NCBI GenBank assembly: GCA_045128835.1
Contig: JBGVRX010000017.1
Span: 28,938-92,937 of the forward strand
Direction: 5' to 3'
Source: Bacilli bacterium
GTDB taxonomy: Bacteria > Bacillota_I > Bacilli_A > RFN20 > DUOF01
DNA length: 64,000 nt
The translations under genes and the position numbers were made by a program. Below, piece after piece: positions 611 through 63,504 of the stretch (position 1 is the stretch's first letter; each line of letters begins with the position of its first letter). Under the pieces are notes generated by a model that was given only the letters and a program-made list of their open reading frames with translations, searched no databases and was not told where the DNA came from.

Positions 611-711
611 GTTTTTTCCTCCCTTTTGTGAATTGACATCACTACTAAAATAATAATATATCAGCCCATTATTTTGCAACAAAAAATCTTTTTTATAATT
701 AAAAATTATAT

Positions 712-1628: not shown

Positions 1629-1654
1629 TAGAAAAAAGGTTACTTATAGTAACC
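1629..1654 (-). terminator. Terminator hairpin GGTTACT-TAT-AGTAACC overlapping the cotJC stop codon, followed by UUUUUUC on the transcript
   Basis: Perfect 7-bp stem at about 1638–1654, with a T-run on the minus-strand side (plus-strand aaaaaa at about 1632–1637). Confidence 0.55.
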
Positions 1655-2203: not shown

Positions 2204-2205
2204 AT

Positions 2206-5690: not shown

Positions 5691-5691
5691 A

Positions 5692-6432: not shown

Positions 6433-6926
6433 TAATTATTCCCCCATTCAATATGTTCTTCCATCCATGATTTTACTGTTTCAACATTCGCTTCTGCGTC
6501 ATTTGATAATTTCATTAGTTCTTTATAAGCAATAGAACCTTCACTAACAATAACCAAATATGGAGTTGTATTTACACCGTTCTTATATAAATCATGTTTA
6601 TCTGAAACTTTGGAATAATCAAGAGTGTACACAACAAGATTCGTGTCTTCAACATATTCTTTAAGGGCTGGTGCTAATAAAGAACAACCATAACAACCTT
6701 GTGCATAAACAAATAACAAGAAATTATCCCCTTCACTAACTTTAGAATCATACGCAGAAGTACTATCTAATTCTTTAGAAAGTAAACCATAATTATTATA
6801 TAAATACGTTGATGATTCACTTTGTGTTGGTACCGTTTCATAATCTAATTTAAATGTTTCTGTTTTCTTACAAGAACATCCAACAACACCCACTAACATC
6901 ATTATAAATAAAATTATTTTTTTCAT
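6432..6926 (-). CDS. Lipoprotein with thioredoxin-like CxxC domain
   Basis: Leader MKKIILFIMMLVGVVGCSCKKTE. FLLFVYAQGCYGCSLLAPALKEY is a Trx-fold CxxC (CYGC). Start taken at MKKIIL (ATG at 6926, RBS AAGGAG 10 nt upstream) rather than the track's 6956. Confidence 0.65.
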   Translation of the reverse strand: MKKIILFIMMLVGVVGCSCKKTETFKLDYETVPTQSESSTYLYNNYGLLSKELDSTSAYDSKVSEGDNFLLFVYAQGCYGCSLLAPALKEYVEDTNLVVYTLDYSKVSDKHDLYKNGVNTTPYLVIVSEGSIAYKELMKLSNDAEANVETVKSWMEEHIEWGNN

Positions 6927-6927
6927 T

Positions 6928-7425
6928 TTATTCACGCTCCTTCTTTGGTTTAACAAAGTTATTTTTTATTAATATATTTTTAAATTCATCTACATTTTTC
7001 AATTTAGACTTACTAACAACAAGTGCCGCTTCATTGCTTAAATATAAATAGAAATTCAACTTATCTTGCTTAACGAAACTAATATCCGTATATGAATATT
7101 CACCTTCGTTTACTGCTCCATTTTTTCTAATAACTTTTTCACGAATTTTATCTTCAGTTATCGTTTGTTCAATTCTAACTATATCTCTCATAAAATTAAC
7201 TTTTTTAGCGTTGTCTGTAATATTCTTTTTCATTATATAATACGCCGCTATCGCTGCTGCAAAGGCTAGAACAAAATTAAAATACATATCATCATCTATA
7301 ATTACTCCAACTACAAACCCGATAATTGCCGATACCAATGAAGCAATCAACATCAACTTCTTATTTTTATTTGCGTTAAGCTGCAATATTAACAACTTAT
7401 ATTCTTCTCCACTATACTCTATCAT
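6928..7425 (-). CDS. YcxB-like membrane protein (paralog 2)
   Basis: Two N-terminal TM helices, then FYLYLSNEAALVVSKSKL… (YcxB-like PH-type domain, recalled from memory). ATGA overlap with the upstream paralog. Confidence 0.55.
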   Translation of the reverse strand: MIEYSGEEYKLLILQLNANKNKKLMLIASLVSAIIGFVVGVIIDDDMYFNFVLAFAAAIAAYYIMKKNITDNAKKVNFMRDIVRIEQTITEDKIREKVIRKNGAVNEGEYSYTDISFVKQDKLNFYLYLSNEAALVVSKSKLKNVDEFKNILIKNNFVKPKKERE

Positions 7426-7940
7426 TTCTCATACTCCTTGACTTTAATACCTTTAGAATTAATTAAACTAATATATTCTTCTCTATTTAAATATATATCT
7501 TTGAATAAGGGAATGGCAACAGCTTCATTCAAAAACAAATAAAAATATTCTTTAGTTTCTACAACCTTTAAAATATCCTTGTATTCAAAACATTTTTCTT
7601 CCGTTTTGAAATCTGATTTATGAAATCTAATAACTACGTTTTCTTCATAAATTTGTTCAACCTTTTCCACATCAAATACATGTCTTTTACTTACAAACAA
7701 AGAGGCAATTATCCCAATCAAAATAAAGAACATGACAATAAGAACTAAATAAATAACTCGCAAAAAAATCTCTTTCATTCCCGATAAAACAAAACACAAA
7801 GAAATAAGCGCAGCTATACTAATAACAAACACCATAACACAATTTCTTAATGAGCCTTTTTTTAATTCTTCTTTATAATAAACTTTCAAAAAATTTTGAA
7901 GACCTTTATTATAATCTTTACCACTTACAACAAACTTCAT
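7422..7940 (-). CDS. YcxB-like membrane protein (paralog 1)
   Basis: Same architecture (two TM helices plus FYLFLNEAVAIPLFKD…). It sits 4 nt after the uvrB stop. Confidence 0.55.
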   Translation of the reverse strand: MKFVVSGKDYNKGLQNFLKVYYKEELKKGSLRNCVMVFVISIAALISLCFVLSGMKEIFLRVIYLVLIVMFFILIGIIASLFVSKRHVFDVEKVEQIYEENVVIRFHKSDFKTEEKCFEYKDILKVVETKEYFYLFLNEAVAIPLFKDIYLNREEYISLINSKGIKVKEYEK

Positions 7941-19128: not shown

Positions 19129-19707
19129 ATGAAGAAGCAAGTAAAAAAATTAATTACTAATGAAATAGTAATTACAAAGTCAAAATTTATAACATATTTA
19201 TTTCCAGTTTCTTCATTAGAAGAAGTAAAAATAAAACTTGAAGAATTTAAAGAAAAATATAAAGATGCTACTCATGTTTGTTACAGTTATATTCTAGATG
19301 TTAATACTTTTAAATACTATGATGATGGTGAGCCTAGTTGTACTGCTGGAGCCCCTATTTACCAAGTTTTAAACGGCAATGACTTAATATATACAATGTG
19401 CGTTGTTATACGTTATTTTGGTGGCACTAAATTAGGTGTAGGAGGACTAGTTAAAGCTTATAGTGGGAGTTGTATTGAAGCGTTAAATAAAGCTGAAATT
19501 ATAGACTATGAAATACTAGATACTTATGTCGTAACAACGTCTTATTCAAATCACGATAAATTAGATTATTTTTTGAAAACCAACAATATAGAAATAGTAG
19601 AAAAACAATTTGATGAAAATGTTTCTATTAAGATAAAAGTAAATGAAAAAAGCCTTGCTTTACTGCAAGACTCTTTCTCTTATAATATAAAGTTATTAAA
19701 GGTTTAA
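19129..19707 (+). CDS. yigZ: IMPACT/YigZ-family protein (UPF0029)
   Basis: N-terminal IMPACT fold motifs (…SKFITYLFPVSSLEE…DATHVCYSYIL…DDGEP…AG) and a C-terminal DUF1949-like part. It is the only plus-strand gene. Confidence 0.8.
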   Translation: MKKQVKKLITNEIVITKSKFITYLFPVSSLEEVKIKLEEFKEKYKDATHVCYSYILDVNTFKYYDDGEPSCTAGAPIYQVLNGNDLIYTMCVVIRYFGGTKLGVGGLVKAYSGSCIEALNKAEIIDYEILDTYVVTTSYSNHDKLDYFLKTNNIEIVEKQFDENVSIKIKVNEKSLALLQDSFSYNIKLLKV

Positions 19708-20469
19708 TCCAAATTCATTTTTAAAGAAACCTGTTATTAAGCCAACAACACTTGTTGCTGCATACGTAATTGCTACACCGATTATTAACCACTTTAACCC
19801 GTGGATTTTTTCGCGTCTAGTACTTGGTTCATCTGCACTCTTAACAATTTGAAATCCAAGTATTGTTCCTTTTATAATAAAGAACAAACTAGTGATTATA
19901 TAAATTATTGGCAACACAGCTTTGTTTACTACAACTTGAATTTTACTCATTGCACCACTTAATTCTTTGTCACCTACACCACCAAGATTCTTACCATTTA
20001 TATAATTTTCATTAGTATCTGCAATTTGAACAGAACCAACTGTAAATGATCCATACACACTTTCAGTTCCACTATAGGCACTGCTTGTACCAAAGAAAGC
20101 TTCTACTCTTACTCTATATTGAAAATCTGAATCTAATTTAAGGTTATATGTATGTTTTGCTAATCCTGCTTCTGTGTTTTTAAATGGTGCTAAAGCAGTA
20201 GCATCAACAATGTTTATAACAGAATAATTACCACCATCACATTGTTCTCCTTTAACACAATAATATACATCCGCTTTTCTTAATCCATATTTATACTCTA
20301 ACTCTATTTTTCCGTTACTATAAACCGTAACTTTACTAATCGTATCACCAAATATATCTTGGCTTGTTACTGTTGCATATACTTCAGCAGCAGATACTTT
20401 TGCCTCTACTAACATAAACGAGCAAAAAGCCATTAATATAGTTAGTATAATCCATCTAATCTTTTTCAT
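19696..20469 (-). CDS. Secreted protein with a C-terminal two-TM 'IVKSADEP…RREKI' module (paralog A)
   Basis: Signal peptide MKKIRWIILTILMAFCSFMLVEAKVSAAE. Ectodomain has an IELEYKYG motif and a Cys pair. C-terminus: TM(Pro-containing)–FQIVKSADEPSTRREKIHGLK–TM. Confidence 0.6.
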   Translation of the reverse strand: MKKIRWIILTILMAFCSFMLVEAKVSAAEVYATVTSQDIFGDTISKVTVYSNGKIELEYKYGLRKADVYYCVKGEQCDGGNYSVINIVDATALAPFKNTEAGLAKHTYNLKLDSDFQYRVRVEAFFGTSSAYSGTESVYGSFTVGSVQIADTNENYINGKNLGGVGDKELSGAMSKIQVVVNKAVLPIIYIITSLFFIIKGTILGFQIVKSADEPSTRREKIHGLKWLIIGVAITYAATSVVGLITGFFKNEFGLNL

Positions 20470-20471
20470 AC

Positions 20472-21557
20472 TTATTTCTCTTCGATTATTCCTTTTATAA
20501 AATTAACAGCAGGATTTGCAGCAAATAATAGCAATAATGCAATAGCTATACCAATTAAAATATTTCTAAGTCTAACAATCTTTTCTCTTCTTTCTTGAGG
20601 TTCATCTGCACTCTTAACAATCTTATATCCTAATACAGCAATTGAAACACCTGCAGCAATGAATAATATAGTAATTAGAACAGGTATTATTGTATCATAA
20701 ACCAAATCCTCTATTTCGCTAGCTCCACCCTCCATTTTAGAGTTGTCTATTTGAATATATAAAGTATTTTTTGGTGTTGCATCATTCTTATTTAATTCAA
20801 CGTAAGTGTTTTTTACTTGTCTTCTTAATTCATCTGTACATTGACTATCTTTAGTACAAGCTTCAGGAACTTCATTTTGATATACTAAATATCTTCTATC
20901 AGTATAAGTAACATCGTATTTTTTTGAACTTCCCAAAACAGTTTCAACAAAATATCTAACTCTAGCGTCTGAAGTAATGTCACTCTTTGATTGTCCTGAA
21001 CTTTGCTTACAATTTTGAGTATTATTGTCTACACTACAATATAAAGGATAATAAAGTCCTGTATTATCACTCGCTCCTGTTGTAGATTTCATAAAAGAAA
21101 ATATTAATTGAACTTGAGCAATTTTTCCAGCACCAAAATAATCGTACAAGTGAATTGTTTTGCTTTTAACACCGCTAGCATCTCTATTATAGTCTCCAGA
21201 CATATGGATAATCCTTACAGTTCCATTAAAATTACCGCACGAAACAGCATCTGTTAAATCTCCATTAGTTATTTGATTATGTGTTGAATCATAGTAAAGT
21301 GAGCACTCAGTTGCTACAACCATCAATTCACTAAATCCATACTTATACTCAATCGTGATTGCACCATAATGATTTGCTTTTATGCTTCCTATAACAACAC
21401 CTGCATTTTTCTCTTCATAAACAAGTGTCTTATTATTTTTGTCTCTAGGTGTAGTTCCATACGCAGAAACTTTTTGATTACCTTGAACTAAAAATATTCC
21501 ACTTATCATCGTTAATAACATAAAAAATACAAACATAAAACTTAATGATTTTTTCAT
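20472..21557 (-). CDS. Secreted protein with a C-terminal two-TM 'IVKSADEP…RREKI' module (paralog B)
   Basis: Signal peptide, an ectodomain with ITIEYKYG and multiple Cys, and a C-terminal TM–YKIVKSADEPQERREKIVRLR–TM. 2 nt upstream of paralog A. Confidence 0.6.
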   Translation of the reverse strand: MKKSLSFMFVFFMLLTMISGIFLVQGNQKVSAYGTTPRDKNNKTLVYEEKNAGVVIGSIKANHYGAITIEYKYGFSELMVVATECSLYYDSTHNQITNGDLTDAVSCGNFNGTVRIIHMSGDYNRDASGVKSKTIHLYDYFGAGKIAQVQLIFSFMKSTTGASDNTGLYYPLYCSVDNNTQNCKQSSGQSKSDITSDARVRYFVETVLGSSKKYDVTYTDRRYLVYQNEVPEACTKDSQCTDELRRQVKNTYVELNKNDATPKNTLYIQIDNSKMEGGASEIEDLVYDTIIPVLITILFIAAGVSIAVLGYKIVKSADEPQERREKIVRLRNILIGIAIALLLLFAANPAVNFIKGIIEEK

Positions 21558-21637
21558 ACTTACTACCTTCTTTCATTAAAATTATATCTATTATTGGGAA
21601 TTCTTGCAACAAATCCCATTTCAAATGAGTAAAACAA

Positions 21638-21669
21638 AAGAAAAAAACTCTATTAATAGAGTTCTTTTT
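21638..21669 (-). terminator. Terminator: perfect 18-nt palindrome AACTCTATTAATAGAGTT between an A7 and a T5 run, directly after the LytM-domain gene stop
   Basis: aaaaaaaACTCTATTAATAGAGTtcttttt at about 21641–21669. Confidence 0.6.
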
Positions 21670-22335
21670 CTAAACTATTTTTTTAATTTCTTGGCCATAC
21701 AATTTATTAGGATTTAGAAGAGTTTCATTTTTCATTAAAGCGAAATGTAAATGATTATTAACTTTCGCATCTATTGTGTTGGTTCCAGCTTTAGCTATCA
21801 CATCGCCTTGTTTAACATTATCGCCTACATTTACATTAATATCATTTAAGCTTCCATATATCGCGGTTATACCGTTATCGTTTTTTATATAAACCATATA
21901 ACCATATAATGGATCAACTTTTCTTTCTGTAACCACTCCACTGAATGCCGCTATTACATCAAATTTCGTATTGTTATAAGAGTATTCCATTGCAGTAGAT
22001 GGTGTATACTTGCCTTTATACTCTAAAATAGATTTTTCTTGAATTGCTAAATCATCTTTTGCATCAAAGAAATATCGTTCCACTTTAGCATTAACACTAA
22101 AAGGTTTAATTAATTTTTCCTCTACTGTTACTGGATTTGATGGTTCTGGATTTTCATCTTCCTCTCCTCCATTTGTAGAATTATCTACTGAAGGATTTAC
22201 AACAACCATATCCCCATCATTTGAATTAGAGAAAAACATAATTCCTCCAAACAAAAATACTGCTAAAATCGATAAAACAACAGCCGCTTTAAATTCCTTA
22301 GTTAATGAAACTTTTTTCAATTTTTCCTTTGCCAT
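21670..22335 (-). CDS. Membrane-anchored LytM/M23-domain protein with a degenerate active site (SpoIIQ-like?)
   Basis: N-terminal TM, then an LytM domain that keeps Asp (KFDV) and HLHF. The HxxxD His and the catalytic H(L) are replaced (…YIKNDNGITAIYGSL…). RBS GAGGTGA. Confidence 0.75.
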   Translation of the reverse strand: MAKEKLKKVSLTKEFKAAVVLSILAVFLFGGIMFFSNSNDGDMVVVNPSVDNSTNGGEEDENPEPSNPVTVEEKLIKPFSVNAKVERYFFDAKDDLAIQEKSILEYKGKYTPSTAMEYSYNNTKFDVIAAFSGVVTERKVDPLYGYMVYIKNDNGITAIYGSLNDINVNVGDNVKQGDVIAKAGTNTIDAKVNNHLHFALMKNETLLNPNKLYGQEIKKIV

Positions 22336-22975: not shown

Positions 22976-23377
22976 TTATTTATTAAAAAAATATTTTGAA
23001 AAATAAAATTTTACTCTTACTCCTGATGTATCGCACATATTTTTCTTTAGTTCTCCTTGCAGTGAATTACCTTTTGCTTCACCAATATAAACAACAATAG
23101 CCCCATCTTCATATTTTGCTAAACTACCATCCTTAGCAAATTTACTTATATTATTTATTACAGCATCTTGATGTAAACTAGGATCTAAATATTCAATAAT
23201 TTCATTATATTTATCAATTAAATATTCTTTATATGTATACCCATCTAAAATATCACTCATTGAATTGCTATTTAAAACAACTCTATACTCATAATTAAAT
23301 TCTTTTTGACTATTTACTTTTCCTCCAATTATTAACCCACTTGACAATACTATTGTTGTTACTATTTTTCTTATCAC
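22976..23377 (-). CDS. Small secreted protein of unknown function (GTG start)
   Basis: Signal-peptide-like N-terminus (IVTTIVLSSGLIIGG). GTG start with GGGTGA RBS 6 nt upstream. 133 aa, no recognizable domain. Confidence 0.45.
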   Translation of the reverse strand: MIRKIVTTIVLSSGLIIGGKVNSQKEFNYEYRVVLNSNSMSDILDGYTYKEYLIDKYNEIIEYLDPSLHQDAVINNISKFAKDGSLAKYEDGAIVVYIGEAKGNSLQGELKKNMCDTSGVRVKFYFSKYFFNK

Positions 23378-25402: not shown

Positions 25403-28400
25403 TTACATGTCTTCATAGATGATTTCCTCTTCTTCCTCTTCTTCCTCTTCTTTCTTTCTACGTTTCAAGAATATTACAAAGAAGAACGCTACTAGAGCAA
25501 AGATTAGGAAGGCTATTGCAGCGTAGCCTAATCCGCCATCTTCACTTTCATCTCCATCTACTGTTTGACTTCCGAATTTATTTAATTCTTCAGCTTCTAC
25601 AACGAAACCAACAAACATATAAGTATCATCAGTTCCAGCAACTTTAATTTCTACGATTCCTCCAGAAATCAAAGTTTGATATTCACTTTCTGAGAATAAT
25701 TTACCACTAACATATTGGAATCCTCCATCAATAAGTGGCATAGCAATTAAGATACCATTATTTCTAGAATATGATGTTCCAGAAATACTAACTTTATCAA
25801 TTGCATTGTGTTGAGAAATTATATTAACAAGTTTTTCATTAATTATTACGCTACGAGTTTTATTGATTACAAATTGCAAGTTAACAGTATTGCCAGCTAA
25901 ATCTCTTATAACAACTTGATAATATCCATCATTAGTAAATGTGTATAATGTTGGAATGTTGTATTTTGAGTTAACTGCTATTGTTGCATTTTCTTCTGTA
26001 ATCAAATTAACATCAGTATTGGTAATACCTTTGTTTATAACCCCTGTCAAACTGAAGTTAGGTGCCGTTCTATCAACAACAAACATTACTACAGAAGATA
26101 CGTTATCAGCCATATCTACAGCATATACACGATACGTTCCTTCATGTGAGAATGATAATACTTGTTCATCTGTTCTTACCCATTCTCCGTTTTGATATCT
26201 ATACTCATAATATTTAATTTTTTCATTACTATATACTTCTACAACTTCTCTGTTTGTATATTCACCATTTCTAACACCTAAAATTTGAGGTGGCGTGCTG
26301 TCTATTGCAAACCATATTCTTGTTTCATTTCCAGCATCGTCTCTTACTAATAAATTATATTCACCTTCAGCTTCAACGAAGTGAGGGCTTGATATTTCTT
26401 CTCCATTCAACCAACCAATTAATTTTTCATCTGTTCCTAAAGTTGGGATGAAATAAATACTAACTGGTTCTTTATAATATTTGCCATCTTCAACACCTAG
26501 TACGATAGGTGGTATAGTATCTACAACATAAACAATTCTCGTTGCTTCACCAACGTTTCCAGAACTATCGATAGCTTTATAAATTACTTCATAAACACCT
26601 AGCGCCATACCTGATGGTGCATTTATTATTGTGACATGTGGCATTGGTCCATCGTAATTATCGATTGCAGTTGCCCCATATTCCACATATTCCAAACCTC
26701 TTTCAATAGTAATAGGATTTTCACCAATTAGCGTTACAACCGGTGGTGTTGTATCTTTTACATATACCCGCCTGATAACAGGTTCAGCCTTATTTCCATT
26801 ACTATCTGTCGCATTATATGTAACAATATATTCACCTAACTTATTAACATTAATATTATGATTAACAACAAGGTTTACTGTTATACCATGATATTCATCA
26901 TATCTATCATATACAATAGCGCCAAATTCTTCGTACATTGTAAATACTTCAACGATTTGGCTAGTATCATCTTCACAAGGCAAATCATTTGCACATTTAA
27001 GCGTAATTGTAGGTGCAGTAGTATCTACAACCTCAACATAGCGATTAAGCGTTACCGCAGCATTTCCTGCCATATCGCTTACATCATAACGAATTGTATA
27101 TAAACCTATTCTAGTATTATCAACTGTTCCTGTAACAACAACACGTTTTTGAAGTTCATCTAAATCTTCCATATAGTCATCTTCTACCCAAATACCATAT
27201 CCAGGAGCATCACATCTTAAATCATATTCTTCATATAATGCTTCTATTGTTATGTATTGAGGACATTTTGCATAGAAATGAATAATCGGATTTTGAACAT
27301 CTACAACAATAATTTCTCTTGTTACAGTTTGAGCGATATTGCCATGAGCATCTACTGCATCATAATATAAATAATATGTTCCTAACTCATTACCTATTTG
27401 CCCAGTTATAGTTACTGGAACATAACTATCATAGTTATCTTTAGCAACTGCTCCTGGTTCTTCATAATTAAGCTCTGGATATGAATAACGAATAATATAT
27501 GGATTTGTTCCATTAAGAACAATTACTGGAGGAGTACTATCTCTTACAATAACTATTCTAACTTTACCAGCACCAATATTACCAGCTGTATCTTGATAAT
27601 CGTAATGAACATAATATGTTCCTAATCTACTTGTATCAATTCTATTTACTAACTCTTCTCCAAAATAGAAACTTGAACCAGGCATTATAAATGTTCCATC
27701 AACATTATCTTCAACCAAAGCACCTTCATCTTTAAATTCACTATATACTTCTACATATGTTACTTCATCACCAATTAGAGTAATAACTGGTGACACGTTA
27801 TCAATAATTTCTACATATCTTACTGTACTACCTCTGTTACCAGATTCATCGTAAGCAACGTAAGTTACTTCATAAGTACCAATTTTATCAATAATAATTG
27901 GGTTGTTTATAAGAACTTCTAGTGGACCATCATAGTTATCAACCGCAGTTGCGCCATATTCTACATATGCTTGTCCATATAATAATTTTATTTCTCTATT
28001 TCCGATTAGATTAACTACAGGGGGAGTTGTATCTCTTACAACAACTTGTCTATATACACTAATCGCATTATTTCCGTGACTATCTTTAGCATCATACTTT
28101 ATATAATATGTTCCTTTTACTTCTTCATTTACATATCCCGTGATAACTAAAGAATCAGTTATATCTCCATCAATATCATCAATTACAGTAGCACCTTGTT
28201 CGATATAATCCACACCTGTTTTTGCTTCAATGTAAACAACAGGATTTCCATTTAATGTAATTACTGGAGGATTATTGTTACGAACATAGAAGAACAATGG
28301 ATCACTTGTTTTACCACCAATCTTAGCTTGAATTTTATATTCGCCTTTTCCTAAATTAGGAGTATAGTCGAAATAAATATTCGTAACTTTATTAGCCTTG

Positions 28401-31400
28401 ATAGTTGTTCCATTTATTATCCATTGAACAGTTGCATCACTACTTGCATTTTCAGGAACGATAACCATATAAGTTATTCTTTCCTCTTTACCTAAAATTT
28501 GTTCAGTTGAACCATTTACCCATCTTATATAAACAGTACCAACAGTATCTATTTCTACAAATACTTCGTAGTATGCTGTTTTACCGCCATAAGAAGCACT
28601 TACAACATATGTTCCTATACTTCCACTTGGGAAGAAAGAAATGATATTGTTGATTGGATCTTTTGTGAATTCCCATTCTAATTCTTCGTTTTTGATAATT
28701 GTCCATACAACATCGCCAATGTTAGTTTCATCAGCACCTTCATTAAACCTTACATATAATCTAACTTCTTCTTCTTCACCTTTTACTTGATATTGGTTAC
28801 TTGTTAAAGAATAAATAGTTAAACCTGTAAATTCAGCATATCTTATAGTAAATACTCCTGGAGTATAAATAATTTGGTAGTTACTGTTAATAGATAAACT
28901 ACCTTGCATAATTTCATACTCTCCAACTTCCTCTCCGGCATCCCTAACCAAAGAACCGTAGAATCTATCATTACCAATAAGAGTTCCTATATAGTTATAT
29001 GTTAATTGAGGATCTGCTGTACCGTATAACTTACCATTATTTTCAGCTTTTACCTCTATAATTCTAGCCATTACTGTGAAATAAGCTTCATTTAATACCA
29101 TATCAAAGTTTGGCCCAAAACTTAAAGTTCCTAGCAAGATTCTATATTTACCTACATCTTCTCCTGGCTCTCTATCAAGTTCTCCAGTATAAGTTGCTCC
29201 AGCAAAATCTATGGTAAACTTGAAGTAATCAGGATCATCTTCACCATATACTTTATATAATGTTGATTCACTAGGTGTAATTGTTACAACTCTTTTGTTT
29301 ACGATTAATAAACCAGGCAAGAAACTGTAGTTGTAGTTTCTTATGTTTGTAACAGTTATATTATCACCTAAAATTCTATAAGTTCCATAACCTGCATATT
29401 CTCTATCTAAATTCAATTCACCTTCGATTGAATCCACAACACCAATGTCAGGATTATTTGCAACTCCATCACCGCTTATTGTATAAGCTAATTCAAATGG
29501 ATCTCCGTAATAAATTTCAATATCACTTGCTTTTAAAACCAAAGATCTTGGGTTAATAGTAAATGTTCTACTACCATCTAAAACAAGTTCATAGTTAGGT
29601 TTACCACTTGGAGTGTTAACACTTAAGGTTCCAAGACTAATTAAGTATTCTCCAACATCTTCAGTAACCATAACACCATTTACATCTCTTGGAGTTCTCT
29701 TTAAAGTTCCAACAAACTCATCGCCTTCATCTAATAAAGCTGGAGTATATGTAAATGTAATACCTATATCTGATTCGCCATATTTTTTGAATTGTCCATC
29801 ATCTGGAGTTATTTTAATTGTTCTAGGCACAATTGTTAATGTACCATTCTCGAATGAATAATTGTAATATTTGTGAGTAACATCTTCACCTGTATATCTT
29901 CTAACGATTTTTATGTCCTCACAACTAATTGTGTAAGTTCCAACACCATCAACTGTTCCTAGTATTTTCAAACTACCATCTAAAATATCATATATTGGAC
30001 TTCCATCGATTTCTAAAGTCAAGTTATATGCTAGTTTACTTCCACTTGTATCATAAACTATATCTTTTTGATATTCATTACCATATATTGCACTAACGTC
30101 TCTTGCTTTAACAAGAATTGTTCTTTTTTCTATACGGAATGGATGATAATTTCTAAACTCAGTAATTAGATAGTTAGCCACTCTTTCTCCATCTTCATTT
30201 TTACCATGAAGTATAAGTTCAAATGTACCCCAGTTTATTGCATAATCACCAGGTTCTTCACCTGCGTCTCTTCCAAGCCATCCTTTGTAATCATATTCAA
30301 GCATTTCTTCTATAACGCCATTATAGTAAACAATAAACTCTAATTTAGGGTCATCATTACCATATTGTTTTCCTTGTCCAGATTTAACTTCAATTGAAAC
30401 TTCTCTTTGAACAATCTTCAAGACTCCACCACTTGTAGAAATAGTATAGTTGTTAGTTACATCAAGTTTTTCATCTTCTACATCAGCATAAACTCTAATT
30501 GAACCAACACCAATTTGATAAACACCAACATTACGATATTCACCTGCATCTGGAGTTCCTTCTAAATAGTCAGCATATTGTAGATCATCAACCCAAACCC
30601 CATCAATGATATCTCCACCAACTGTAAATTCTATTTCATCTTGTAACACTTCTTTATAAATGATTGTTTGGTTTTCAATTGAAACTCTTAATAGTCTTTT
30701 TACTATTTCAAATTTATATTCTTGGAATAAATAAACATCATAGTTTTCGCAACCTTCTAGTTTTTCTATAGTTATAGGATAGTACCCAACATAAATTCCC
30801 TCGGCTCTAATTAAATGATATTTCATTCTATCATTATCTCTAGGAATATATGGTTCTTCACCTTCAACGCTACTTGGAGTAATCTCAATAACAAATCTTC
30901 CATTTGCCTCTAAAATTACATATTCATCATATCCAGTTAAATCGTAATCAGTGAAGACTTTATCTTCATCACCATAAACTTTACTTAAGTCTTTAATTAT
31001 CTTTATCCAGATTTCTTTTCTTATAACTTCTAATTCACCCGGATTAAATGTTACGTTGTAGTTGTATTCTGCATCCATATTATCTTTATCTAAAATTCTC
31101 AAAGATCCTTTATTAATAACATATACACCTATTCCATTTACATATTCTGTTATTAAATCTCCGCCTTGAGTATATAAAGATGCTCCTTCTGGAGAAAATT
31201 TATCAGCAATTCCCAAGTTTGCGTTATTTACCAAACCAGTCGCAGTACCAACACTACTATCATAAACTTCTAAATAAGGTATATTATCCTCATAGTATAT
31301 AGTGTATTTCCCTGTTGGATTTCCATTTTCATCCAAATCACCTTTTACACTAATTGAAATATCTCTTCTTAAAATAGTCAAGTATGCATCAAAGAATTCT

Positions 31401-33916
31401 ACTTGATAATTCATGTTTGCTGCAGAACCAGATATTAAATAGTAATCAATATAATTACCATAAGCATCTGTCACTACAGTTTCACCTTCAACAGTTCTAT
31501 AAACAGTTACTCTTAATTCTTGTTGACAGAACTCTATTGTCGCACCATTAATTGGATATGCTCCTCTACATTCTTTTATAGAGAATTCTATATCATCTTC
31601 ACCATATATTTTACTCGCACTTTCAATATACACTGAAATATGTTTTGGTTTAATTAGGAAAGCACCTTCACCAAAATCAAGATAATAGTTATCTACTCCA
31701 CCGTTATATTGTTCATAAACATGAAGTGTACCTACCATTATTCTTCTTGCAACAAGATTACCTTCTGTGTCATACCATACAGCCTCACTAACGCTCCAGC
31801 TTCCTTCATCCATCCAAATTTCAATTCCTTCTTCTGGATTGCCCATATATCTTTCGATATCACCAATTAGTCTATCTCCAGTATTTGGAGCAAAAGTACA
31901 ACGATAATCTTGATTATATAGAGGGTCTGTAGGATCACAAACTCTCATATCAATTTCATAAGTTAATGCTGGATCATCATCCAAATAATACTTTTCTTTA
32001 TCATGAGCAATAACTTTAATAGTTCTTTGCTTAATTGTAAATACCGCACCTTCTTCATAGTGTAAATAATACAAGTCACTTGGCACACGAAGGTTATTAT
32101 AATAAATTTTATAATCACCAACATAATGCGCATTTAATATATACAATTCTCCACTAATAGAGTCACCTTCAAGTAACTCTTCTGAACAAGGAACATTATT
32201 TCCTTCTCTAGTTACACAATGATAAGTTACAACAATATCATCAGCTGTTTTATCACCATAAATAATATATTGTGAATAGTCCGCTTCCACGTGAATCTTT
32301 CTAGCACGAACTTCCGCAATTAGAGAAATAGAGGCAGAAACGTTTCCGGCTTCGTCAACAGCTCTAACAAATATATTATATTCACCTAATACATTTAATC
32401 TTTGATTTTCATCAACAGGAAGTCTGCTAAAATCCAAATAGTATTCTATTGTTTTTGGGCTTCCAGGATACAAACTGTTATCAGTAACGATTATTCCATA
32501 CTTAGCTTCAATTTCTGCTGCTGTTGGATATGGGTCATTAATATAAAAGTCTGTTCTGTTATATGTTTTATTAATAGTTGGATTTGTATTATCGACAGAT
32601 ACTACATAACTATCTCTTTCAACACTGTTACCAGCTTCATCTGTAACTTTATATCTAACAATAATATCTCTTACTGTATATAAGTATTGTCTAAAGTCAC
32701 TTCCTAGAGGCGAACCAATTGAGCCACCAACAACAGTATAATAACTTGCTTCTATTATTATATTCTCACTTAAAGTAACATTATCATAAACAAATACTTG
32801 AGCAAGGGGATTAAATAAATTTACGCTTTCTGTATAAACAGTCATTGTTTCTAAAATTTGAACAAACGGAGCTTCTTTATCAATGTTTGTTACTTCAAAG
32901 ACAAATTCCGCTTCCGATAAGTTTAACGAGCGCGCATATATTGAATAAACACCATTGCTATCAACAATTATTTGCATTGAATCTTTAATCGATGTTGTAT
33001 TGCCATTAAATTCATATTGAAGAACGCTTAAATCATCACTACTTAAAATATAATCAGTATCAAAGAATTTTACAATTACATCAATTGGATAACTATGATT
33101 AATTGGACCCGTTACACTAGGATTTATTTCAATAACTATTTCTGGATCTCTTAAGTTATCAATAACAACTTCCAATCTAAGGGTATATCCGAACACATCT
33201 GTTATTTCAATTAAATATGTTCCATTTTGACGAACAGTAAAATAATAATTGTTAACACTTTCATATAAAGCATTTACAACCGTTTGATTTTCACTACCTT
33301 GAAGAAGATATGTAACATCTTTAAAAACATACTCGTCGATTTTACCTTTACCCGGAATTTCTTCTGGCAAAGTAACATTAACCTTATATGGACTAGCGCC
33401 ATTCTCTTCGTTTTCTTTAATGATTAAAATATCTTCTGGAGTTAACTCTCCAATATTTCTTTTTTGGTCAACTCCCACAATAATCTTATCCACTATCGCA
33501 GAATCGCTTGGATTATAAGAAAATTCAGTAAGTAGTAATATTGTTATATATTTTTCACCATAACTTTTATTTTTTAAAGTATATGTTATCTTACTAGCAA
33601 ATTCAGAACTAACATTTCTTTCATAATGAACTAAATCCGTTAATGAATAGCCACTTTCTACTATAGCAATAGAATTTACATATTCATTAGCAATTGCTTC
33701 TTGTTGAATATCTATAGTTACCTCGGTGTCTCCAATATAATCAGCGCCATAGTTAACTATTGCCCAATAACCTAATTTTTCTCCTATTCCTGCATTTGCA
33801 AAAATATTTTCTGGCAAATCATCTTGGGCTAACACAACATTAGAAGTATTAAAACCTAGATTTAAGAAAAGGAAAGCAAAAGCTAATATAATAGCACTAA
33901 AAAATCTTTTCACCAT
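25403..33916 (-). CDS. Giant surface protein 1 (2837 aa): signal peptide, Ig-like N-terminal region, block of about 10 MBG(YGX)-type modules, about 7 tandem DUF5011-type Ig domains, C-terminal TM anchor plus KRRKK and a poly-Glu tail
   Basis: 8.5-kb uninterrupted ORF in 30%-GC DNA. Signal peptide MVKRFFSAIILAFAFLFLNLGF. Repeated K-x-YG-(E/D)-x-DP…TY…G-x-L-x-R…GE-x-VG-x-Y modules. Repeated PP(V/I)(I/V)-L-x-G…GAT-A-x-D-x-YDG…GTY-x-V-x-Y-x-A-x-D-x-(A/S)GN modules. C-terminal GYAAIAFLIFALVAFFFVIFLKRRKKEEEEEEEEEIIYEDM. Start at ATG 33916 (9 nt after AAAGGAGA) preferred over the track's GTG at 33925. Confidence 0.85.
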   Translation of the reverse strand: MVKRFFSAIILAFAFLFLNLGFNTSNVVLAQDDLPENIFANAGIGEKLGYWAIVNYGADYIGDTEVTIDIQQEAIANEYVNSIAIVESGYSLTDLVHYERNVSSEFASKITYTLKNKSYGEKYITILLLTEFSYNPSDSAIVDKIIVGVDQKRNIGELTPEDILIIKENEENGASPYKVNVTLPEEIPGKGKIDEYVFKDVTYLLQGSENQTVVNALYESVNNYYFTVRQNGTYLIEITDVFGYTLRLEVVIDNLRDPEIVIEINPSVTGPINHSYPIDVIVKFFDTDYILSSDDLSVLQYEFNGNTTSIKDSMQIIVDSNGVYSIYARSLNLSEAEFVFEVTNIDKEAPFVQILETMTVYTESVNLFNPLAQVFVYDNVTLSENIIIEASYYTVVGGSIGSPLGSDFRQYLYTVRDIIVRYKVTDEAGNSVERDSYVVSVDNTNPTINKTYNRTDFYINDPYPTAAEIEAKYGIIVTDNSLYPGSPKTIEYYLDFSRLPVDENQRLNVLGEYNIFVRAVDEAGNVSASISLIAEVRARKIHVEADYSQYIIYGDKTADDIVVTYHCVTREGNNVPCSEELLEGDSISGELYILNAHYVGDYKIYYNNLRVPSDLYYLHYEEGAVFTIKQRTIKVIAHDKEKYYLDDDPALTYEIDMRVCDPTDPLYNQDYRCTFAPNTGDRLIGDIERYMGNPEEGIEIWMDEGSWSVSEAVWYDTEGNLVARRIMVGTLHVYEQYNGGVDNYYLDFGEGAFLIKPKHISVYIESASKIYGEDDIEFSIKECRGAYPINGATIEFCQQELRVTVYRTVEGETVVTDAYGNYIDYYLISGSAANMNYQVEFFDAYLTILRRDISISVKGDLDENGNPTGKYTIYYEDNIPYLEVYDSSVGTATGLVNNANLGIADKFSPEGASLYTQGGDLITEYVNGIGVYVINKGSLRILDKDNMDAEYNYNVTFNPGELEVIRKEIWIKIIKDLSKVYGDEDKVFTDYDLTGYDEYVILEANGRFVIEITPSSVEGEEPYIPRDNDRMKYHLIRAEGIYVGYYPITIEKLEGCENYDVYLFQEYKFEIVKRLLRVSIENQTIIYKEVLQDEIEFTVGGDIIDGVWVDDLQYADYLEGTPDAGEYRNVGVYQIGVGSIRVYADVEDEKLDVTNNYTISTSGGVLKIVQREVSIEVKSGQGKQYGNDDPKLEFIVYYNGVIEEMLEYDYKGWLGRDAGEEPGDYAINWGTFELILHGKNEDGERVANYLITEFRNYHPFRIEKRTILVKARDVSAIYGNEYQKDIVYDTSGSKLAYNLTLEIDGSPIYDILDGSLKILGTVDGVGTYTISCEDIKIVRRYTGEDVTHKYYNYSFENGTLTIVPRTIKITPDDGQFKKYGESDIGITFTYTPALLDEGDEFVGTLKRTPRDVNGVMVTEDVGEYLISLGTLSVNTPSGKPNYELVLDGSRTFTINPRSLVLKASDIEIYYGDPFELAYTISGDGVANNPDIGVVDSIEGELNLDREYAGYGTYRILGDNITVTNIRNYNYSFLPGLLIVNKRVVTITPSESTLYKVYGEDDPDYFKFTIDFAGATYTGELDREPGEDVGKYRILLGTLSFGPNFDMVLNEAYFTVMARIIEVKAENNGKLYGTADPQLTYNYIGTLIGNDRFYGSLVRDAGEEVGEYEIMQGSLSINSNYQIIYTPGVFTIRYAEFTGLTIYSLTSNQYQVKGEEEEVRLYVRFNEGADETNIGDVVWTIIKNEELEWEFTKDPINNIISFFPSGSIGTYVVSASYGGKTAYYEVFVEIDTVGTVYIRWVNGSTEQILGKEERITYMVIVPENASSDATVQWIINGTTIKANKVTNIYFDYTPNLGKGEYKIQAKIGGKTSDPLFFYVRNNNPPVITLNGNPVVYIEAKTGVDYIEQGATVIDDIDGDITDSLVITGYVNEEVKGTYYIKYDAKDSHGNNAISVYRQVVVRDTTPPVVNLIGNREIKLLYGQAYVEYGATAVDNYDGPLEVLINNPIIIDKIGTYEVTYVAYDESGNRGSTVRYVEIIDNVSPVITLIGDEVTYVEVYSEFKDEGALVEDNVDGTFIMPGSSFYFGEELVNRIDTSRLGTYYVHYDYQDTAGNIGAGKVRIVIVRDSTPPVIVLNGTNPYIIRYSYPELNYEEPGAVAKDNYDSYVPVTITGQIGNELGTYYLYYDAVDAHGNIAQTVTREIIVVDVQNPIIHFYAKCPQYITIEALYEEYDLRCDAPGYGIWVEDDYMEDLDELQKRVVVTGTVDNTRIGLYTIRYDVSDMAGNAAVTLNRYVEVVDTTAPTITLKCANDLPCEDDTSQIVEVFTMYEEFGAIVYDRYDEYHGITVNLVVNHNINVNKLGEYIVTYNATDSNGNKAEPVIRRVYVKDTTPPVVTLIGENPITIERGLEYVEYGATAIDNYDGPMPHVTIINAPSGMALGVYEVIYKAIDSSGNVGEATRIVYVVDTIPPIVLGVEDGKYYKEPVSIYFIPTLGTDEKLIGWLNGEEISSPHFVEAEGEYNLLVRDDAGNETRIWFAIDSTPPQILGVRNGEYTNREVVEVYSNEKIKYYEYRYQNGEWVRTDEQVLSFSHEGTYRVYAVDMADNVSSVVMFVVDRTAPNFSLTGVINKGITNTDVNLITEENATIAVNSKYNIPTLYTFTNDGYYQVVIRDLAGNTVNLQFVINKTRSVIINEKLVNIISQHNAIDKVSISGTSYSRNNGILIAMPLIDGGFQYVSGKLFSESEYQTLISGGIVEIKVAGTDDTYMFVGFVVEAEELNKFGSQTVDGDESEDGGLGYAAIAFLIFALVAFFFVIFLKRRKKEEEEEEEEEIIYEDM
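25424..25450 (-). repeat. (GAA/GAG)9 microsatellite-like run encoding the C-terminal poly-Glu of giant protein 1
   Basis: ctcttcttc ctcttcttc ctcttcttt on the plus strand, E9 in frame. Confidence 0.8.
26520..28270 (-). repeat. Protein-level tandem array of about 7 Ig-like DUF5011-type domains within giant gene 1 (approx. aa 1885–2470)
   Basis: Seven consecutive 75–90-aa units beginning PPV(I/V)(T/V)L(N/I)G and ending …D-x-(S/A)GN-x-(A/G)…R-x-V-x-V-x-D. Bounds from residue counting are approximate. Confidence 0.6.
28860..32040 (-). repeat. Protein-level array of MBG(YGX)-type modules within giant gene 1 (approx. aa 630–1690)
   Basis: Recurring K-x-YG-(E/D)-x-D modules (KVYGDEDKVFTDYDLTG, KQYGNDDPKLEFIVYY, KKYGESDIGITFTYTP, IYYGDPFELAYTISG, KVYGEDDPDYFKFTIDF, KLYGTADPQLTYNYIG…). 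Family name recalled from memory. Confidence 0.5.
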
Positions 33917-33945
33917 TGCTTTCACTCTCCTTTCTTTAAATATAA

Positions 33946-33970
33946 GTAGGGGAAAAGTTTATTTCCCCTT
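33946..33970 (-). terminator. Hairpin AGGGGAAA-N6-TTTCCCCT between giant genes 2 and 1, overlapping the gene-2 stop and abutting the gene-1 RBS
   Basis: Perfect 8-bp stem at about 33948–33969. It is followed on the transcript by ACUUAUAUUU (a weak U-tract) and then AAAGGAGA-N9-ATG of gene 1. Confidence 0.4.
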
Positions 33971-46877: not shown

Positions 46878-47104
46878 ATAAACACTCCTCCCTAAGGGTA
46901 CAATCATAGACAATAACATTTTATAACAAAAGTCTCTTGCAACCAATGTTTTACGGCTTTTTTTGTCGTATTTTGTGTACAATATTTCTGTTTTTTTACA
47001 AATAGCATAAATTTCGCCATTTTTATAAACTTTTATATTATTATATAATAATATAAAATTATTGATTTAACCAAAATAATAAAAACAGCAAAAAATTACC
47101 AACA

Positions 47105-47181: not shown

Positions 47182-47182
47182 T

Positions 47183-63500: not shown

Positions 63501-63504
63501 CAAC

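What the first reader, a model, noticed from the sequence alone, without database searches (positions are those of the whole stretch)
19696..21557. Paralogous pair of secreted proteins sharing a unique C-terminal TM–'(K/Q)IVKSADEPxxRREKI'–TM module
Two adjacent, tightly coupled genes (2-nt spacing) have their own terminator-bounded transcription unit. Both encode a signal peptide and a Cys-containing ectodomain with a shared '(I/T)-I-E-Y-K-Y-G' motif. Both end with hydrophobic helix 1 (Pro-containing: VLPIIYIITSLFFII / IIPVLITILFIAAGV), an almost identical 17-aa cytoplasmic loop (IVKSADEPSTRREKIHG / IVKSADEPQERREKIVR) and hydrophobic helix 2. The near-identity of the loop against divergent ectodomains implies the loop is the functional core. 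It could be a docking site, or a VirB2/pilin-like helical hairpin. I cannot place it in a known family.
Basis: seen in the sequence. Interest (0 to 1): 0.65.

Follow-up and report, generated by a model that had tools for sequence, protein, structure and literature searches.

The report
Surface proteins ending in T4SS pilin hairpins
Two adjacent genes of an uncultured spore-forming gut bacterium encode secreted surface domains fused to a membrane hairpin of the kind that builds conjugative (type IV secretion) pili, a part that recent reviews say ordinary Gram-positive bacteria lack.

Summary
Two translationally coupled genes on the minus strand (A 20472..21557, 361 aa; B 19696..20469, 257 aa) each encode a signal peptide, a Cys-containing beta-rich ectodomain and a C-terminal helix-loop-helix with a near-identical loop (IVKSADEPxxRREKI).

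The module is not unplaceable. It is a VirB2/TrbC-type type IV secretion (T4SS) pilin hairpin: 35 of 36 family members hit Pfam PF18895, 14 hit TrbC/VirB2, and both proteins hit NCBIfam NF045849 below its cut-off.

The closest short relatives (~100-130 aa, loop KAADEPQVRQEKI) sit in front of Mycoplasma-ICE-type T4SS genes (Mbov_0396-like membrane protein, Mbov_0397-type VirB4). That cluster is fixed in the chromosome beside spoIVA.

In a sister lineage one contig carries a VirB4 gene 4.8 kb upstream of the positional orthologues of A and B. One MAG carries both loci.

The pair is core-chromosomal, with a conserved own promoter and terminators. Its ectodomains evolve fast while the hairpin is conserved.

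Best reading: these are surface-domain-bearing pilin paralogues serviced by a domesticated chromosomal T4SS. It is not shown that the window's own genome has that T4SS, or that any pilus is made.

Verdict: new variant of a known kind, with moderately high interest.

The parts
20472..21557 (-). Gene A (361 aa): signal peptide, beta-rich Cys-containing ectodomain, C-terminal pilin-like helical hairpin
   Evidence: ORF. 28 homologues, all unnamed metagenomic proteins. AF2 model pLDDT 76.7 with strands 45-269 and helices 273-318 and 320-360.
21462..21557 (-). A signal peptide (residues 1-32, ...KVSA|YG)
   Evidence: Hydrophobic segment 6-24. The VSA cleavage-type site is read from the sequence. 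The N-terminal pattern is conserved in alignment A2.
20742..21461 (-). A ectodomain (residues 33-272) with the ITIEYKYGF beta-hairpin and six Cys
   Evidence: Y71, G74 and G121 are invariant, and C85, C107, C174 and C183 nearly invariant. Mean pairwise identity is only 30%. No significant PDB fold match.
20475..20741 (-). A pilin-like module (residues 273-361): helix 1 with invariant Pro292, loop, helix 2
   Evidence: NF045849 32.3 bits, E 5.8e-8. PF18895 14.3 bits. Module HMM 124.8 bits. hhalign against the B family gives 99.5% probability.
20577..20624 (-). A loop K312-IVKSADEPQERREK-I327 (predicted cytoplasmic in the membrane-inserted form)
   Evidence: I313, K315, D318, E319 and R323 are invariant in 26 orthologues. 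Loop region identity is 74%.
19696..20469 (-). Gene B (257 aa): signal peptide, beta-sandwich ectodomain, flexible linker, C-terminal pilin-like hairpin
   Evidence: ORF. 34 homologues. AF2 model pLDDT 78.5: sandwich 30-151 at pLDDT 85-93, disordered 164-172, helices 169-210 and 215-246.
20389..20469 (-). B signal peptide (residues 1-27, ...KVSA|AE)
   Evidence: Hydrophobic segment 7-25. VSA site read from sequence.
19975..20388 (-). B ectodomain (residues 28-165) with the ELEYKYGL hairpin and a C71-x5-C77 pair
   Evidence: Y59, G62 and C71 invariant, C77 nearly invariant. Mean identity 47%. Only weak FN3/Ig-like matches in the PDB (best E 4.5e-3).
19699..19974 (-). B pilin-like module (residues 166-257)
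   Evidence: PF18895 scores 23.4 bits for the full protein and 26.1 bits for the module alone, against a cut-off of 26.6. NF045849 25.8 bits. Module HMM 127.8 bits.
19804..19851 (-). B loop Q207-IVKSADEPSTRREK-I222
   Evidence: I208, D213 and R218 invariant; V209, K210, A212 and K221 nearly invariant.
21581..21609 (-). Sigma-70-type promoter of the A-B operon (TTGCAA, 17 nt, TATAAT), followed by RBS GAAGG at 21566..21570
   Evidence: Scan hit with 10 of 12 matches. The hexamers and RBS are invariant in four orthologous loci whose A proteins are 36-40% identical, and recognisable in two sister-lineage loci.
21641..21663 (-). Hairpin AACTCTA-TTAA-TAGAGTT plus T-run, ending the upstream M23 gene's transcript
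   Evidence: Read from sequence. An equivalent hairpin plus T-run is present in all six aligned loci. It was not flagged by the scanner because it has too few G-C pairs.
19646..19677 (-). Intrinsic-terminator-like hairpin (13 pairs) plus T-run, 19 nt after the stop of B, lying inside the 3' coding end of the convergent yigZ gene
21670..22335 (-). Context only: M23/LytM-domain membrane protein (SpoIIQ-like, degenerate metal site), a constant upstream neighbour with its own terminator
   Evidence: PF01551 E 1e-19. NF053738 SpoIIQ 139 bits over the full length, below the 250 cut-off. It is the neighbour in every orthologous locus.

Best explanation
A and B are Sec-exported membrane proteins. In each, a fast-evolving beta-sandwich surface domain is fused to a C-terminal VirB2/TrbC-type T4SS pilin hairpin: helix 1 with an invariant Pro, the basic loop KSADEPxxRxEK, then helix 2.

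In the membrane the ectodomain and the C-terminus face outward and the loop faces the cytoplasm. This is the resting topology of conjugative pilins.

They are paralogues of a short pilin that, in related genomes, heads a chromosomally fixed Mycoplasma-ICE-type T4SS module: pilin, Mbov_0396-like polytopic protein, VirB4, duplicated.

Most likely that machine takes A and B from the membrane through the shared hairpin and loop. They would then join or decorate the pilin-based surface structure, displaying variable adhesin-like domains for cell-cell or host contact.

Shown: the architecture, the homology of the hairpin to the T4SS-linked short pilins, the conservation pattern, the core-genome location, the separate conserved promoter, and linkage to a T4SS in the sister lineage.

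Inferred: the cleavage site, the topology, dependence on the T4SS, polymerisation, and an adhesive role.
For: Module identity:
- 35 of 36 module sequences hit PF18895 T4SS_pilin (best E 3e-8), 14 hit TrbC/VirB2 and 2 hit CagC.
- A and B hit NF045849 with E 5.8e-8 and 6.3e-6.

Short pilins and their T4SS cluster:
- An exhaustive profile search found only 258 relatives.
- The short relatives P0129, P0169, P0128 and P0180 carry the same loop.
- They lie directly upstream of VirB6-like and VirB4 genes beside spoIVA in five genomes or assemblies.
- In L020 the cluster reaches curated NCBIfam cut-offs: pilin 40.1 against 40, Mbov_0396 91.4 against 70, Mbov_0397 VirB4 632.7 against 590.
- The VirB4 matches PDB 4ag5 at E 6e-49.

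Linkage between the T4SS and the pair:
- Contig L024 carries a VirB4-family gene, a 292-aa gene, typA, a small ORF, rpiB, M23, the A orthologue and the B orthologue. The VirB4 gene ends 4.8 kb before A.
- MAG GCA_045612885.1 holds both the T4SS cluster (L020) and the syntenic A-B pair (L023).
- L013 has a 306-aa ectodomain-pilin fusion 2 kb from the short pilin.

Conservation and structure:
- The hairpin is conserved and the ectodomains diverge.
- The promoter is conserved.
- AF2 models show a beta domain, a flexible linker and a long helical hairpin.
Against: - No T4SS gene lies in the 64 kb window. The window's own genome could not be searched, so co-occurrence is shown only for a sister lineage (TypA 84%, SecA 61% identical). 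One of the two links rests on MAG binning.
- In the window lineage, giant surface-protein genes occupy the place where the sister lineage has the T4SS.
- A and B score below the curated cut-offs of PF18895 and NF045849.
- Classical pilins are about 70-130 aa. A 130-240 aa domain on every subunit may hinder helical packing.
- No solved pilin was recovered by sequence or by Foldseek.
- Housekeeping genes (typA, rpiB) separate the pair from the T4SS even in L024, so the proximity could be inherited synteny.
Confidence: 0.55

Rival explanations
1. A and B are T4SS-independent surface proteins. An ancestral pilin hairpin was exapted simply as a C-terminal membrane anchor, or as a self-oligomerising stalk, for envelope or adhesion proteins. 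In that case A and B act on their own, in parallel with the giant C-terminally anchored surface proteins nearby.
For: - The pair has its own sigma-70-type promoter and terminators in a housekeeping neighbourhood.
- No T4SS gene is in the window.
- A third paralogue sits after rpoC, far from any T4SS gene.
- Neighbouring giant proteins also use a C-terminal membrane anchor.
Against: - A simple anchor does not explain near-invariance of a charged cytoplasmic loop across three or more paralogue families and the T4SS-linked short pilin.
- It also does not explain the invariant Pro and Gly in the helices.
- Fusions and the T4SS lie on the same contigs in relatives.
Confidence: 0.27
2. The pair is a sporulation component working with the adjacent SpoIIQ-like LytM protein, for example as part of a forespore-mother cell channel. 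The T4SS cluster beside spoIVA would be used during sporulation.
For: - The upstream neighbour matches the SpoIIQ model over its whole length (139 bits). Its LytM metal site looks degenerate (NxxxD in place of HxxxD, read).
- The organism has cotJB and cotJC.
- The T4SS cluster is flanked by spoVIF and spoIVA.
Against: - The SpoIIQ match is below the curated cut-off of 250.
- A terminator and a near-consensus vegetative-type promoter separate the M23 gene from A.
- spoIVA near cmk and der is ordinary Firmicutes synteny (general knowledge).
- No sporulation-sigma promoter was identified.
Confidence: 0.08
3. The resemblance to T4SS pilins is compositional, that is, two hydrophobic helices and a charged loop. 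On this reading the module is an unrelated lineage-specific membrane hairpin.
For: - The window proteins score below the Pfam and NCBIfam cut-offs.
- Other two-helix membrane families appear among the weak hits (TctB, tetraspanin, ATP synthase c).
- There are no PDB pilin hits.
Against: - The top family is consistently PF18895, in 35 of 36 sequences, followed by TrbC/VirB2 and CagC.
- Several orthologues carry precomputed PF18895 hits.
- The module HMM finds the short proteins at E 1e-16 to 1e-25. These occupy the pilin slot before Mbov_0396 and VirB4 homologues, and one reaches the NF045849 cut-off.
Confidence: 0.05

Closest known systems
Mbov_0395 / MMCAP2_0565 family 'pilin-like conjugal transfer protein' of Mycoplasma integrative conjugative elements (NCBIfam NF045849)
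   Same: - It has the same helix-loop-helix module.
- The short relatives of A and B reach this model's cut-off.
- They keep the ICE gene order: pilin-like protein, Mbov_0396-type membrane protein, Mbov_0397-type VirB4.
- In M. agalactiae ICEA, the genes CDS15, CDS16 and CDS17 are needed for transfer (PMC6030558). Mapping CDS15 to this family is my inference from gene order.
   Different: - A and B are 2-4 times longer, with a signal peptide and a 130-240 aa ectodomain in front of the module.
- They score below the cut-off (32.3 and 25.8 against 40).
- They are core-chromosomal, not on a mobile element.
- They occur in a walled, spore-forming lineage.
Pfam PF18895 T4SS_pilin: VirB2-like pilin arrays of Patescibacteria (CPR)
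   Same: - It is the same Pfam family.
- The setting is chromosomal and apparently non-conjugative.
- There are several divergent paralogous pilin genes per genome, arranged in tandem.
- The host is a monoderm (PMC12102498, PMC12857230).
   Different: - CPR pilins are described as small proteins clustered near virB4.
- Here the host is a Bacilli lineage, the subunits carry large ectodomains, and the paralogues are scattered: after M23, after rpoC and beside spoIVA.
- The 2025 review states that VirB2 is otherwise not found in Gram-positive T4SSs.
TrbC/VirB2 conjugative pilins of Gram-negative bacteria (PF04956; F TraA, T-pilus VirB2, CagC)
   Same: - A cleaved leader precedes two hydrophobic helices joined by a short basic loop.
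- 14 of 36 module sequences hit PF04956.
- The predicted membrane topology is the same.
- In the solved pili the loop lines the lumen and contacts phospholipid (general knowledge). That would explain strong conservation of the loop.
   Different: - The similarity is only sub-threshold.
- There is no outer membrane.
- No VirB5, VirB7, VirB9 or VirB10 homologue was seen.
- The large N-terminal domain has no counterpart.
- Pilus formation is unproven.
Multi-copy variable pilins of the Bartonella Trw T4SS (TrwL/TrwJ)
   Same: Paralogous, sequence-variable pilin genes are thought to diversify surface binding (PMC12857230). This is a functional analogy for the fast-evolving A, B and C ectodomains.
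   Different: Trw variability lies within small pilins inside the T4SS operon of a Gram-negative bacterium. Here the variability sits in appended domains.

Membership tests
VirB2/TrbC-type T4SS pilin superfamily (PF18895, PF04956) | Significant profile match to the family model | tested here: inconclusive
   Window B scores 23.4 bits (26.1 for the module alone) and A scores 14.3 bits, against a gathering score of 26.6. However, 35 of 36 family modules hit PF18895 (best E 3e-8), and several orthologues carry precomputed PF18895 hits.
VirB2/TrbC-type T4SS pilin superfamily (PF18895, PF04956) | Two hydrophobic alpha-helices joined by a short charged loop, preceded by a cleavable leader | tested here: met
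   Hydropathy analysis. AF2 helices are 169-210 and 215-246 in B, and 273-318 and 320-360 in A. The N-terminal signal sequence ending in a VSA site is read from the sequence; cleavage itself was not tested.
VirB2/TrbC-type T4SS pilin superfamily (PF18895, PF04956) | Small protein (mature form roughly 70-130 aa) consisting essentially of the hairpin | tested here: not met
   A is 361 aa and B is 257 aa, with 130-240 aa ectodomains. Of the 191 relatives held, 152 are at least 200 aa with the module at the C-terminus.
VirB2/TrbC-type T4SS pilin superfamily (PF18895, PF04956) | Encoded with VirB4 and other T4SS genes | tested here: not met
   No VirB4 or VirB6 homologue lies in the 64 kb window. 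In the sister lineage a VirB4 gene lies 4.8 kb upstream of the orthologous pair, and the same MAG holds both loci.
VirB2/TrbC-type T4SS pilin superfamily (PF18895, PF04956) | Polymerises into a lipid-containing helical pilus | not testable with these tools
   Only monomer prediction was available.
Mbov_0395 family pilin-like conjugal transfer protein (NF045849) | Score at or above the curated cut-off (40 bits) | tested here: not met
   A scores 32.3 bits and B 25.8 bits. The short relative P0180 scores 40.1 bits.
Mbov_0395 family pilin-like conjugal transfer protein (NF045849) | Located on an integrative conjugative element next to Mbov_0396 and Mbov_0397 homologues | tested here: not met
   A and B lie between an M23 gene and yigZ in conserved housekeeping synteny. 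There is no plasmid match.
Patescibacteria-type chromosomal pilin array | Two or more divergent PF18895 pilin genes in tandem on the chromosome | tested here: met
   A and B are 2 nt apart, and their modules are 35% identical. The tandem arrangement is conserved in all orthologous loci.
Patescibacteria-type chromosomal pilin array | Host belongs to Patescibacteria, with the array near virB4 | tested here: not met
   The matching genomes are titled 'Bacilli bacterium' MAGs. Sporulation genes are present. No virB4 lies in the window.
SpoIIQ-SpoIIIAH sporulation channel partners | Homology to SpoIIIA or SpoIIQ components, or co-transcription with them | tested here: not met
   A and B have no hit to such families. 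A terminator and a separate promoter divide them from the SpoIIQ-like gene.

The most novel reading that the evidence does not exclude
A walled, spore-forming Bacilli lineage has domesticated a Mycoplasma-ICE-type T4SS. With it, the lineage builds a VirB2-type fibre or surface array whose subunits (A, B, the rpoC-linked paralogue C, and the short pilin) include pilins that each carry an Ig-like domain. This would be an adhesin-sheathed conjugative-type pilus in a classical Gram-positive, used for cell-cell or host contact rather than for plasmid transfer. It would also be a possible evolutionary bridge between monoderm conjugation machines and the essential pilin-bearing T4SS of Patescibacteria.
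Probability: 0.3. Interest if true: 0.85.

Novelty: new variant of a known kind. Interest (0 to 1): 0.62.

Why it matters
Current reviews state that VirB2-type pilins are absent from Gram-positive T4SSs, with Patescibacteria as the only exception (PMC12857230, PMC12102498).

This pair, its paralogues and the spoIVA-linked cluster point to something different: a Bacilli clade with pilin-like genes in a fixed, apparently non-mobile T4SS. It also has an undescribed architecture in which the pilin hairpin carries a large, rapidly evolving surface domain.

If these subunits assemble, three things follow:
- The view of what monoderm T4SSs put on the cell surface would change.
- There would be a natural example of domain display on a conjugative-type pilin.
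- There would be a candidate intermediate for the origin of the Patescibacteria pilin arrays.

If they do not assemble, they are still a clear case of a secretion-system part exapted as an anchor for surface proteins.

Tried and rejected
- The third word-indexed homologue search, run with the module alignment, returned one useless hit because hydrophobic words dominated.
- Foldseek against the PDB gave nothing significant for either model, only generic FN3/Ig-like sandwiches. The hairpin is too simple to retrieve pilins.
- A profile search of PDB sequences gave only chance membrane hits.
- The metagenome scan gave just three short loci. It did show a short pilin and a C-type fusion in one assembly.
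- Cluster-member look-ups gave no names or shared accessions.
- The exact look-up of the window's A protein found only two metagenome contigs and no MAG, so the window's genome could not be searched for a T4SS.
- Plasmids, PHROGs and PADLOC gave no relevant match, so a plasmid, phage or defence origin was rejected.
- A type IV (T4P/competence) pilin reading was rejected. There is no class III leader, and the hydrophobic hairpin is C-terminal, despite comFA and comFC lying nearby.
- A lipoprotein reading was rejected because there is no lipobox (read from sequence).
- Ectodomain homology between A and B was not detected by hhalign. It rests only on the shared Y-x-x-G hairpin and Cys pattern.
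Full report
**1. What is in the window**

Two ORFs lie on the minus strand: A (20472..21557, 361 aa) and B (19696..20469, 257 aa). They are separated by 2 nt.

BLASTP aligns only their last ~95 residues (35% identity, E 7e-15). The loops KIVKSADEPQERREKI and QIVKSADEPSTRREKI are almost identical.

Each protein has one N-terminal and two C-terminal hydrophobic segments. The N-terminal one ends in VSA, a signal-peptidase-I type site (read from sequence). No other copy of the loop motif occurs in the 64 kb.

Two small points need correcting. The shared ectodomain motif is E-Y-K-Y-G rather than (I/T)-I-E-Y-K-Y-G. The upstream terminator is a weak A+T-rich hairpin that the scanner missed.

**2. Conservation**

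A has 28 homologues and B has 34 among 5.8 billion clustered proteins. All are unnamed and almost all metagenomic.

In contigs whose A proteins are only 36-40% identical, the gene order is the same: giant surface protein, typA, small ORF, rpiB, M23, A, B, convergent yigZ, GNAT, comFA, comFC, cspA, secA, prfB, yitT, ctpA, uvrB. So the pair belongs to the core chromosome, not to a mobile element.

A scan of one genome per species (185,579 species) found the B and C types in only three MAGs, all titled 'Bacilli bacterium'. The window also carries cotJB and cotJC, so the organism is a spore former.

Within each family the ectodomain diverges while the hairpin and loop are kept:

| Family | Ectodomain identity | Hairpin identity | Loop identity |
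|---|---|---|---|
| A | 30% | 62% | 74% |
| B | 47% | 63% | 69% |

For comparison, TypA is 97-98% and SecA 70-73% identical between the same genomes.

A third paralogue, C (~285-299 aa, motif VTYQRGF, loop QIVKSADEPQVRQEKIG), lies just after rpoB-rpoC in the same MAGs.

**3. Identity of the module**

The window proteins give sub-threshold hits to two families:
- Pfam PF18895 T4SS_pilin: B 23.4 bits, A 14.3 bits, against a cut-off of 26.6.
- NCBIfam NF045849 'Mbov_0395 family pilin-like conjugal transfer protein': A 32.3 bits, B 25.8 bits, against a cut-off of 40.

I scanned 36 modules from the A, B and C families one by one. Of these, 35 hit PF18895 (best E 3e-8), 14 hit TrbC/VirB2 (PF04956) and 2 hit CagC.

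Profile-profile comparison of the A and B families aligns only the module (99.5% probability). No PDB sequence relative was found.

An exhaustive hmmsearch of the module profile against 1.84 billion representatives found only 258 proteins at E<=1e-3. Of the 191 I hold, 152 are at least 200 aa with the module at the extreme C-terminus, 24 are short (<=140 aa) and 6 contain several tandem hairpins.

**4. The short relatives are T4SS pilins in a fixed chromosomal cluster**

Short proteins P0129, P0169, P0128 and P0180 (101-129 aa) share an invariant K[AS]ADEPQ[VIL]RQEKI loop with the C family.

In five genomes or assemblies they lie in the same place. The order is: cmk, der, spoVIF, spoIVA, short pilin, a 958-1555 aa polytopic protein, a VirB4-like ATPase, a ~640 aa polytopic protein, a ~100 aa two-helix protein, and a second VirB4-like ATPase.

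In L020 these genes reach curated NCBIfam cut-offs for the Mycoplasma ICE conjugation module:
- pilin NF045849: 40.1 against 40
- Mbov_0396-type membrane protein: 91.4 against 70, and 108.3 against 90
- Mbov_0397-type VirB4: 632.7 against 590

The VirB4 also matches the solved VirB4 domain 4ag5 at E 6e-49.

The cluster holds the same position next to spoIVA in genomes that have diverged considerably. It therefore looks like a domesticated chromosomal T4SS rather than an active ICE. This is an inference: no relaxase or integrase was looked for beyond the fetched flanks.

**5. Link between that T4SS and the A-B pair**

Three observations connect them.
- On contig L024 (ENA ERZ28436053, 65 kb) the order is: VirB4-family gene, a 292-aa gene, typA, small ORF, rpiB, M23, a 405-aa protein, a 234-aa protein, yigZ. 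The 405-aa and 234-aa proteins both carry the module (58.7 and 46.3 bits) and occupy the exact slots of A and B. The VirB4 gene ends 4.8 kb before the A orthologue.
- MAG GCA_045612885.1 holds the spoIVA-T4SS cluster on contig 9 (L020). It holds the syntenic A-B pair on contig 42 (L023), which starts with the same 292-aa gene.
- On L013 a 306-aa protein (signal peptide, Cys-rich ectodomain, pilin module) lies 2 kb from the short pilin.

One metagenome assembly (JAEIGA01) also contains both a short pilin and a C-type fusion.

For the window's own lineage the link is not shown. The place upstream of typA is filled by at least four giant surface-protein genes, and the window ends inside the fourth. 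No VirB4 or VirB6 homologue is in the window.

**6. Structure**

AF2 models built from family alignments give the following.
- B (pLDDT 78.5): a signal helix, a beta-sandwich at residues 30-151 (pLDDT 85-93), a disordered linker at 164-172, and a helical hairpin at 169-210 and 215-246.
- A (pLDDT 76.7): a larger beta-rich domain and a hairpin at 273-318 and 320-360.

The invariant Y-x-x-G of both families sits at the turn of an equivalent beta-hairpin that ends in a conserved Cys. The ectodomains are therefore probably related, although hhalign does not detect this. Foldseek against the PDB found only insignificant Ig/FN3-like matches.

**7. Transcription**

Between the M23 stop codon and A lie a hairpin plus T-run, a TTGCAA-17-TATAAT promoter and a GAAGG ribosome-binding site.

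These elements are invariant in four orthologous loci and recognisable in the two sister-lineage loci. A strong terminator follows B, lying inside the 3' end of the convergent yigZ gene.

This argues for an autonomous, probably vegetatively and strongly expressed two-gene operon.

**8. Most likely mechanism**

The proposed sequence is as follows.
1. Sec export and leader cleavage.
2. Insertion of the hairpin with the ectodomain and C-terminus outside and the basic loop inside. This follows the positive-inside rule and is the known resting topology of VirB2-type pilins (general knowledge).
3. Recognition of the conserved hairpin and loop by the chromosomal T4SS.
4. Extraction into, or decoration of, a pilin-based surface structure that displays fast-evolving adhesin-like domains.

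In solved conjugative pili the loop lines the lumen and binds lipid head groups, while the N-terminus is on the outside (general knowledge). This would explain both the extreme loop conservation and why an N-terminal fusion is tolerated. Only the architecture, homology, conservation pattern and genomic linkage are shown; the rest is inference.

**9. Rivals**

- The hairpin may be merely an exapted anchor. Favoured by the autonomous operon and scattered paralogues; disfavoured by the invariant cytoplasmic loop shared with the T4SS pilin.
- A sporulation role with the SpoIIQ-like neighbour. Favoured by the full-length but sub-threshold SpoIIQ match, the degenerate LytM site and the sporulation genes flanking the T4SS; disfavoured by the separate vegetative-type promoter.
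- Compositional artefact. Disfavoured by the consistent family ranking and by the gene-order evidence.
- Phage, plasmid and defence origins found no support.

**10. Comparison with what is known, and novelty**

The closest families are the following:
- the Mycoplasma-ICE Mbov_0395 pilin-like proteins
- the PF18895 pilin arrays of Patescibacteria
- more distantly, TrbC/VirB2

Recent literature says VirB2 is not found in Gram-positive T4SSs except in Patescibacteria, and is absent from the MPF-FATA class (PMC12857230, PMC12102498).

A and B fail the membership criteria of size, of curated score and, in this window, of T4SS adjacency. I therefore file them as a new variant, ectodomain-pilin fusions in the core genome of a spore-forming Bacilli clade, rather than as members of those families.

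The main limits are three:
- the organisms are uncultured
- the window's genome could not be searched for the T4SS
- no assembly modelling was possible

Noticed in passing
window 25403..63490 (- strand) and 63491..64000: Three giant ORFs (2840, 4337 and 5435 aa), plus the C-terminal end of a fourth that runs off the window. Each has an N-terminal signal-like segment and a single C-terminal membrane anchor followed by a basic tail, with no LPXTG motif. The 2840-aa protein has Ig-like, MBG and HYR domains. The 4337-aa protein and the first 4900 residues of the 5435-aa protein have no Pfam hit at E 1e-5. They fill the position where a sister lineage has its T4SS cluster.
   Followed up: partly
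L010, L011, L013, L019, L020 (relatives; e.g. L020 10001..20390): A Mycoplasma-ICE-type T4SS module with duplicated VirB6-like, VirB3-like and VirB4 genes. It is fixed in the chromosome directly after spoVIF and spoIVA in several low-GC spore formers. This looks like a domesticated T4SS. No relaxase or coupling protein was seen in the fetched flanks.
   Followed up: partly
P0154 (820 aa), P0182 (471 aa), P0174 (659 aa), P0192 (334 aa): These proteins are made of 2-7 tandem pilin-like hairpins, each with an S/G-x-D/N-P-x-x-R type loop ('poly-pilins'). They came from the exhaustive search. Their origin and context are unknown.
   Followed up: no
window 21670..22335 (-): An M23/LytM membrane protein resembling SpoIIQ over its whole length (139 bits, cut-off 250). 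Its metal site appears degenerate: N-T-K-F-D in place of HxxxD and Y-G-S-L in place of Y-x-H-L, with HLH retained (read from sequence). It is always the upstream neighbour of A.
   Followed up: partly
window 22976..23377 (-): A conserved 133-aa ORF between typA and rpiB with no Pfam or NCBIfam hit. It is present in all orthologous loci and is 57% identical in the sister lineage.
   Followed up: no
window 19696..19707: B and the convergent yigZ (UPF0029/Impact_N) gene overlap by 12 nt. The terminator hairpin of B (19646..19677) lies inside the yigZ coding sequence. The overlap recurs in the orthologous loci.
   Followed up: no
L008 10337..12499 and L009 10275..12077: The rpoC-linked paralogue C is always followed by a 600-720 aa predicted lipoprotein (LxGC lipobox) of unknown function.
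   Followed up: no
window 1640..2667, 77..682, 5106..7940: cotJB and cotJC (Mn-catalase-like) spore-coat genes, a rubrerythrin gene, two tandem YcxB-like genes, a membrane thioredoxin-like gene, and two ORFs (246 and 194 aa) with no family hit.
   Followed up: no
L024 1260..2138 and L023 1..522: A 292-aa protein lies between the T4SS cluster and typA in the sister lineage. It has a Gly/Ser/Arg-rich N-terminus, two membrane segments and a C-terminal CxxC...CxxC zinc-ribbon-like tail, and no Pfam hit is on record for it.
   Followed up: no
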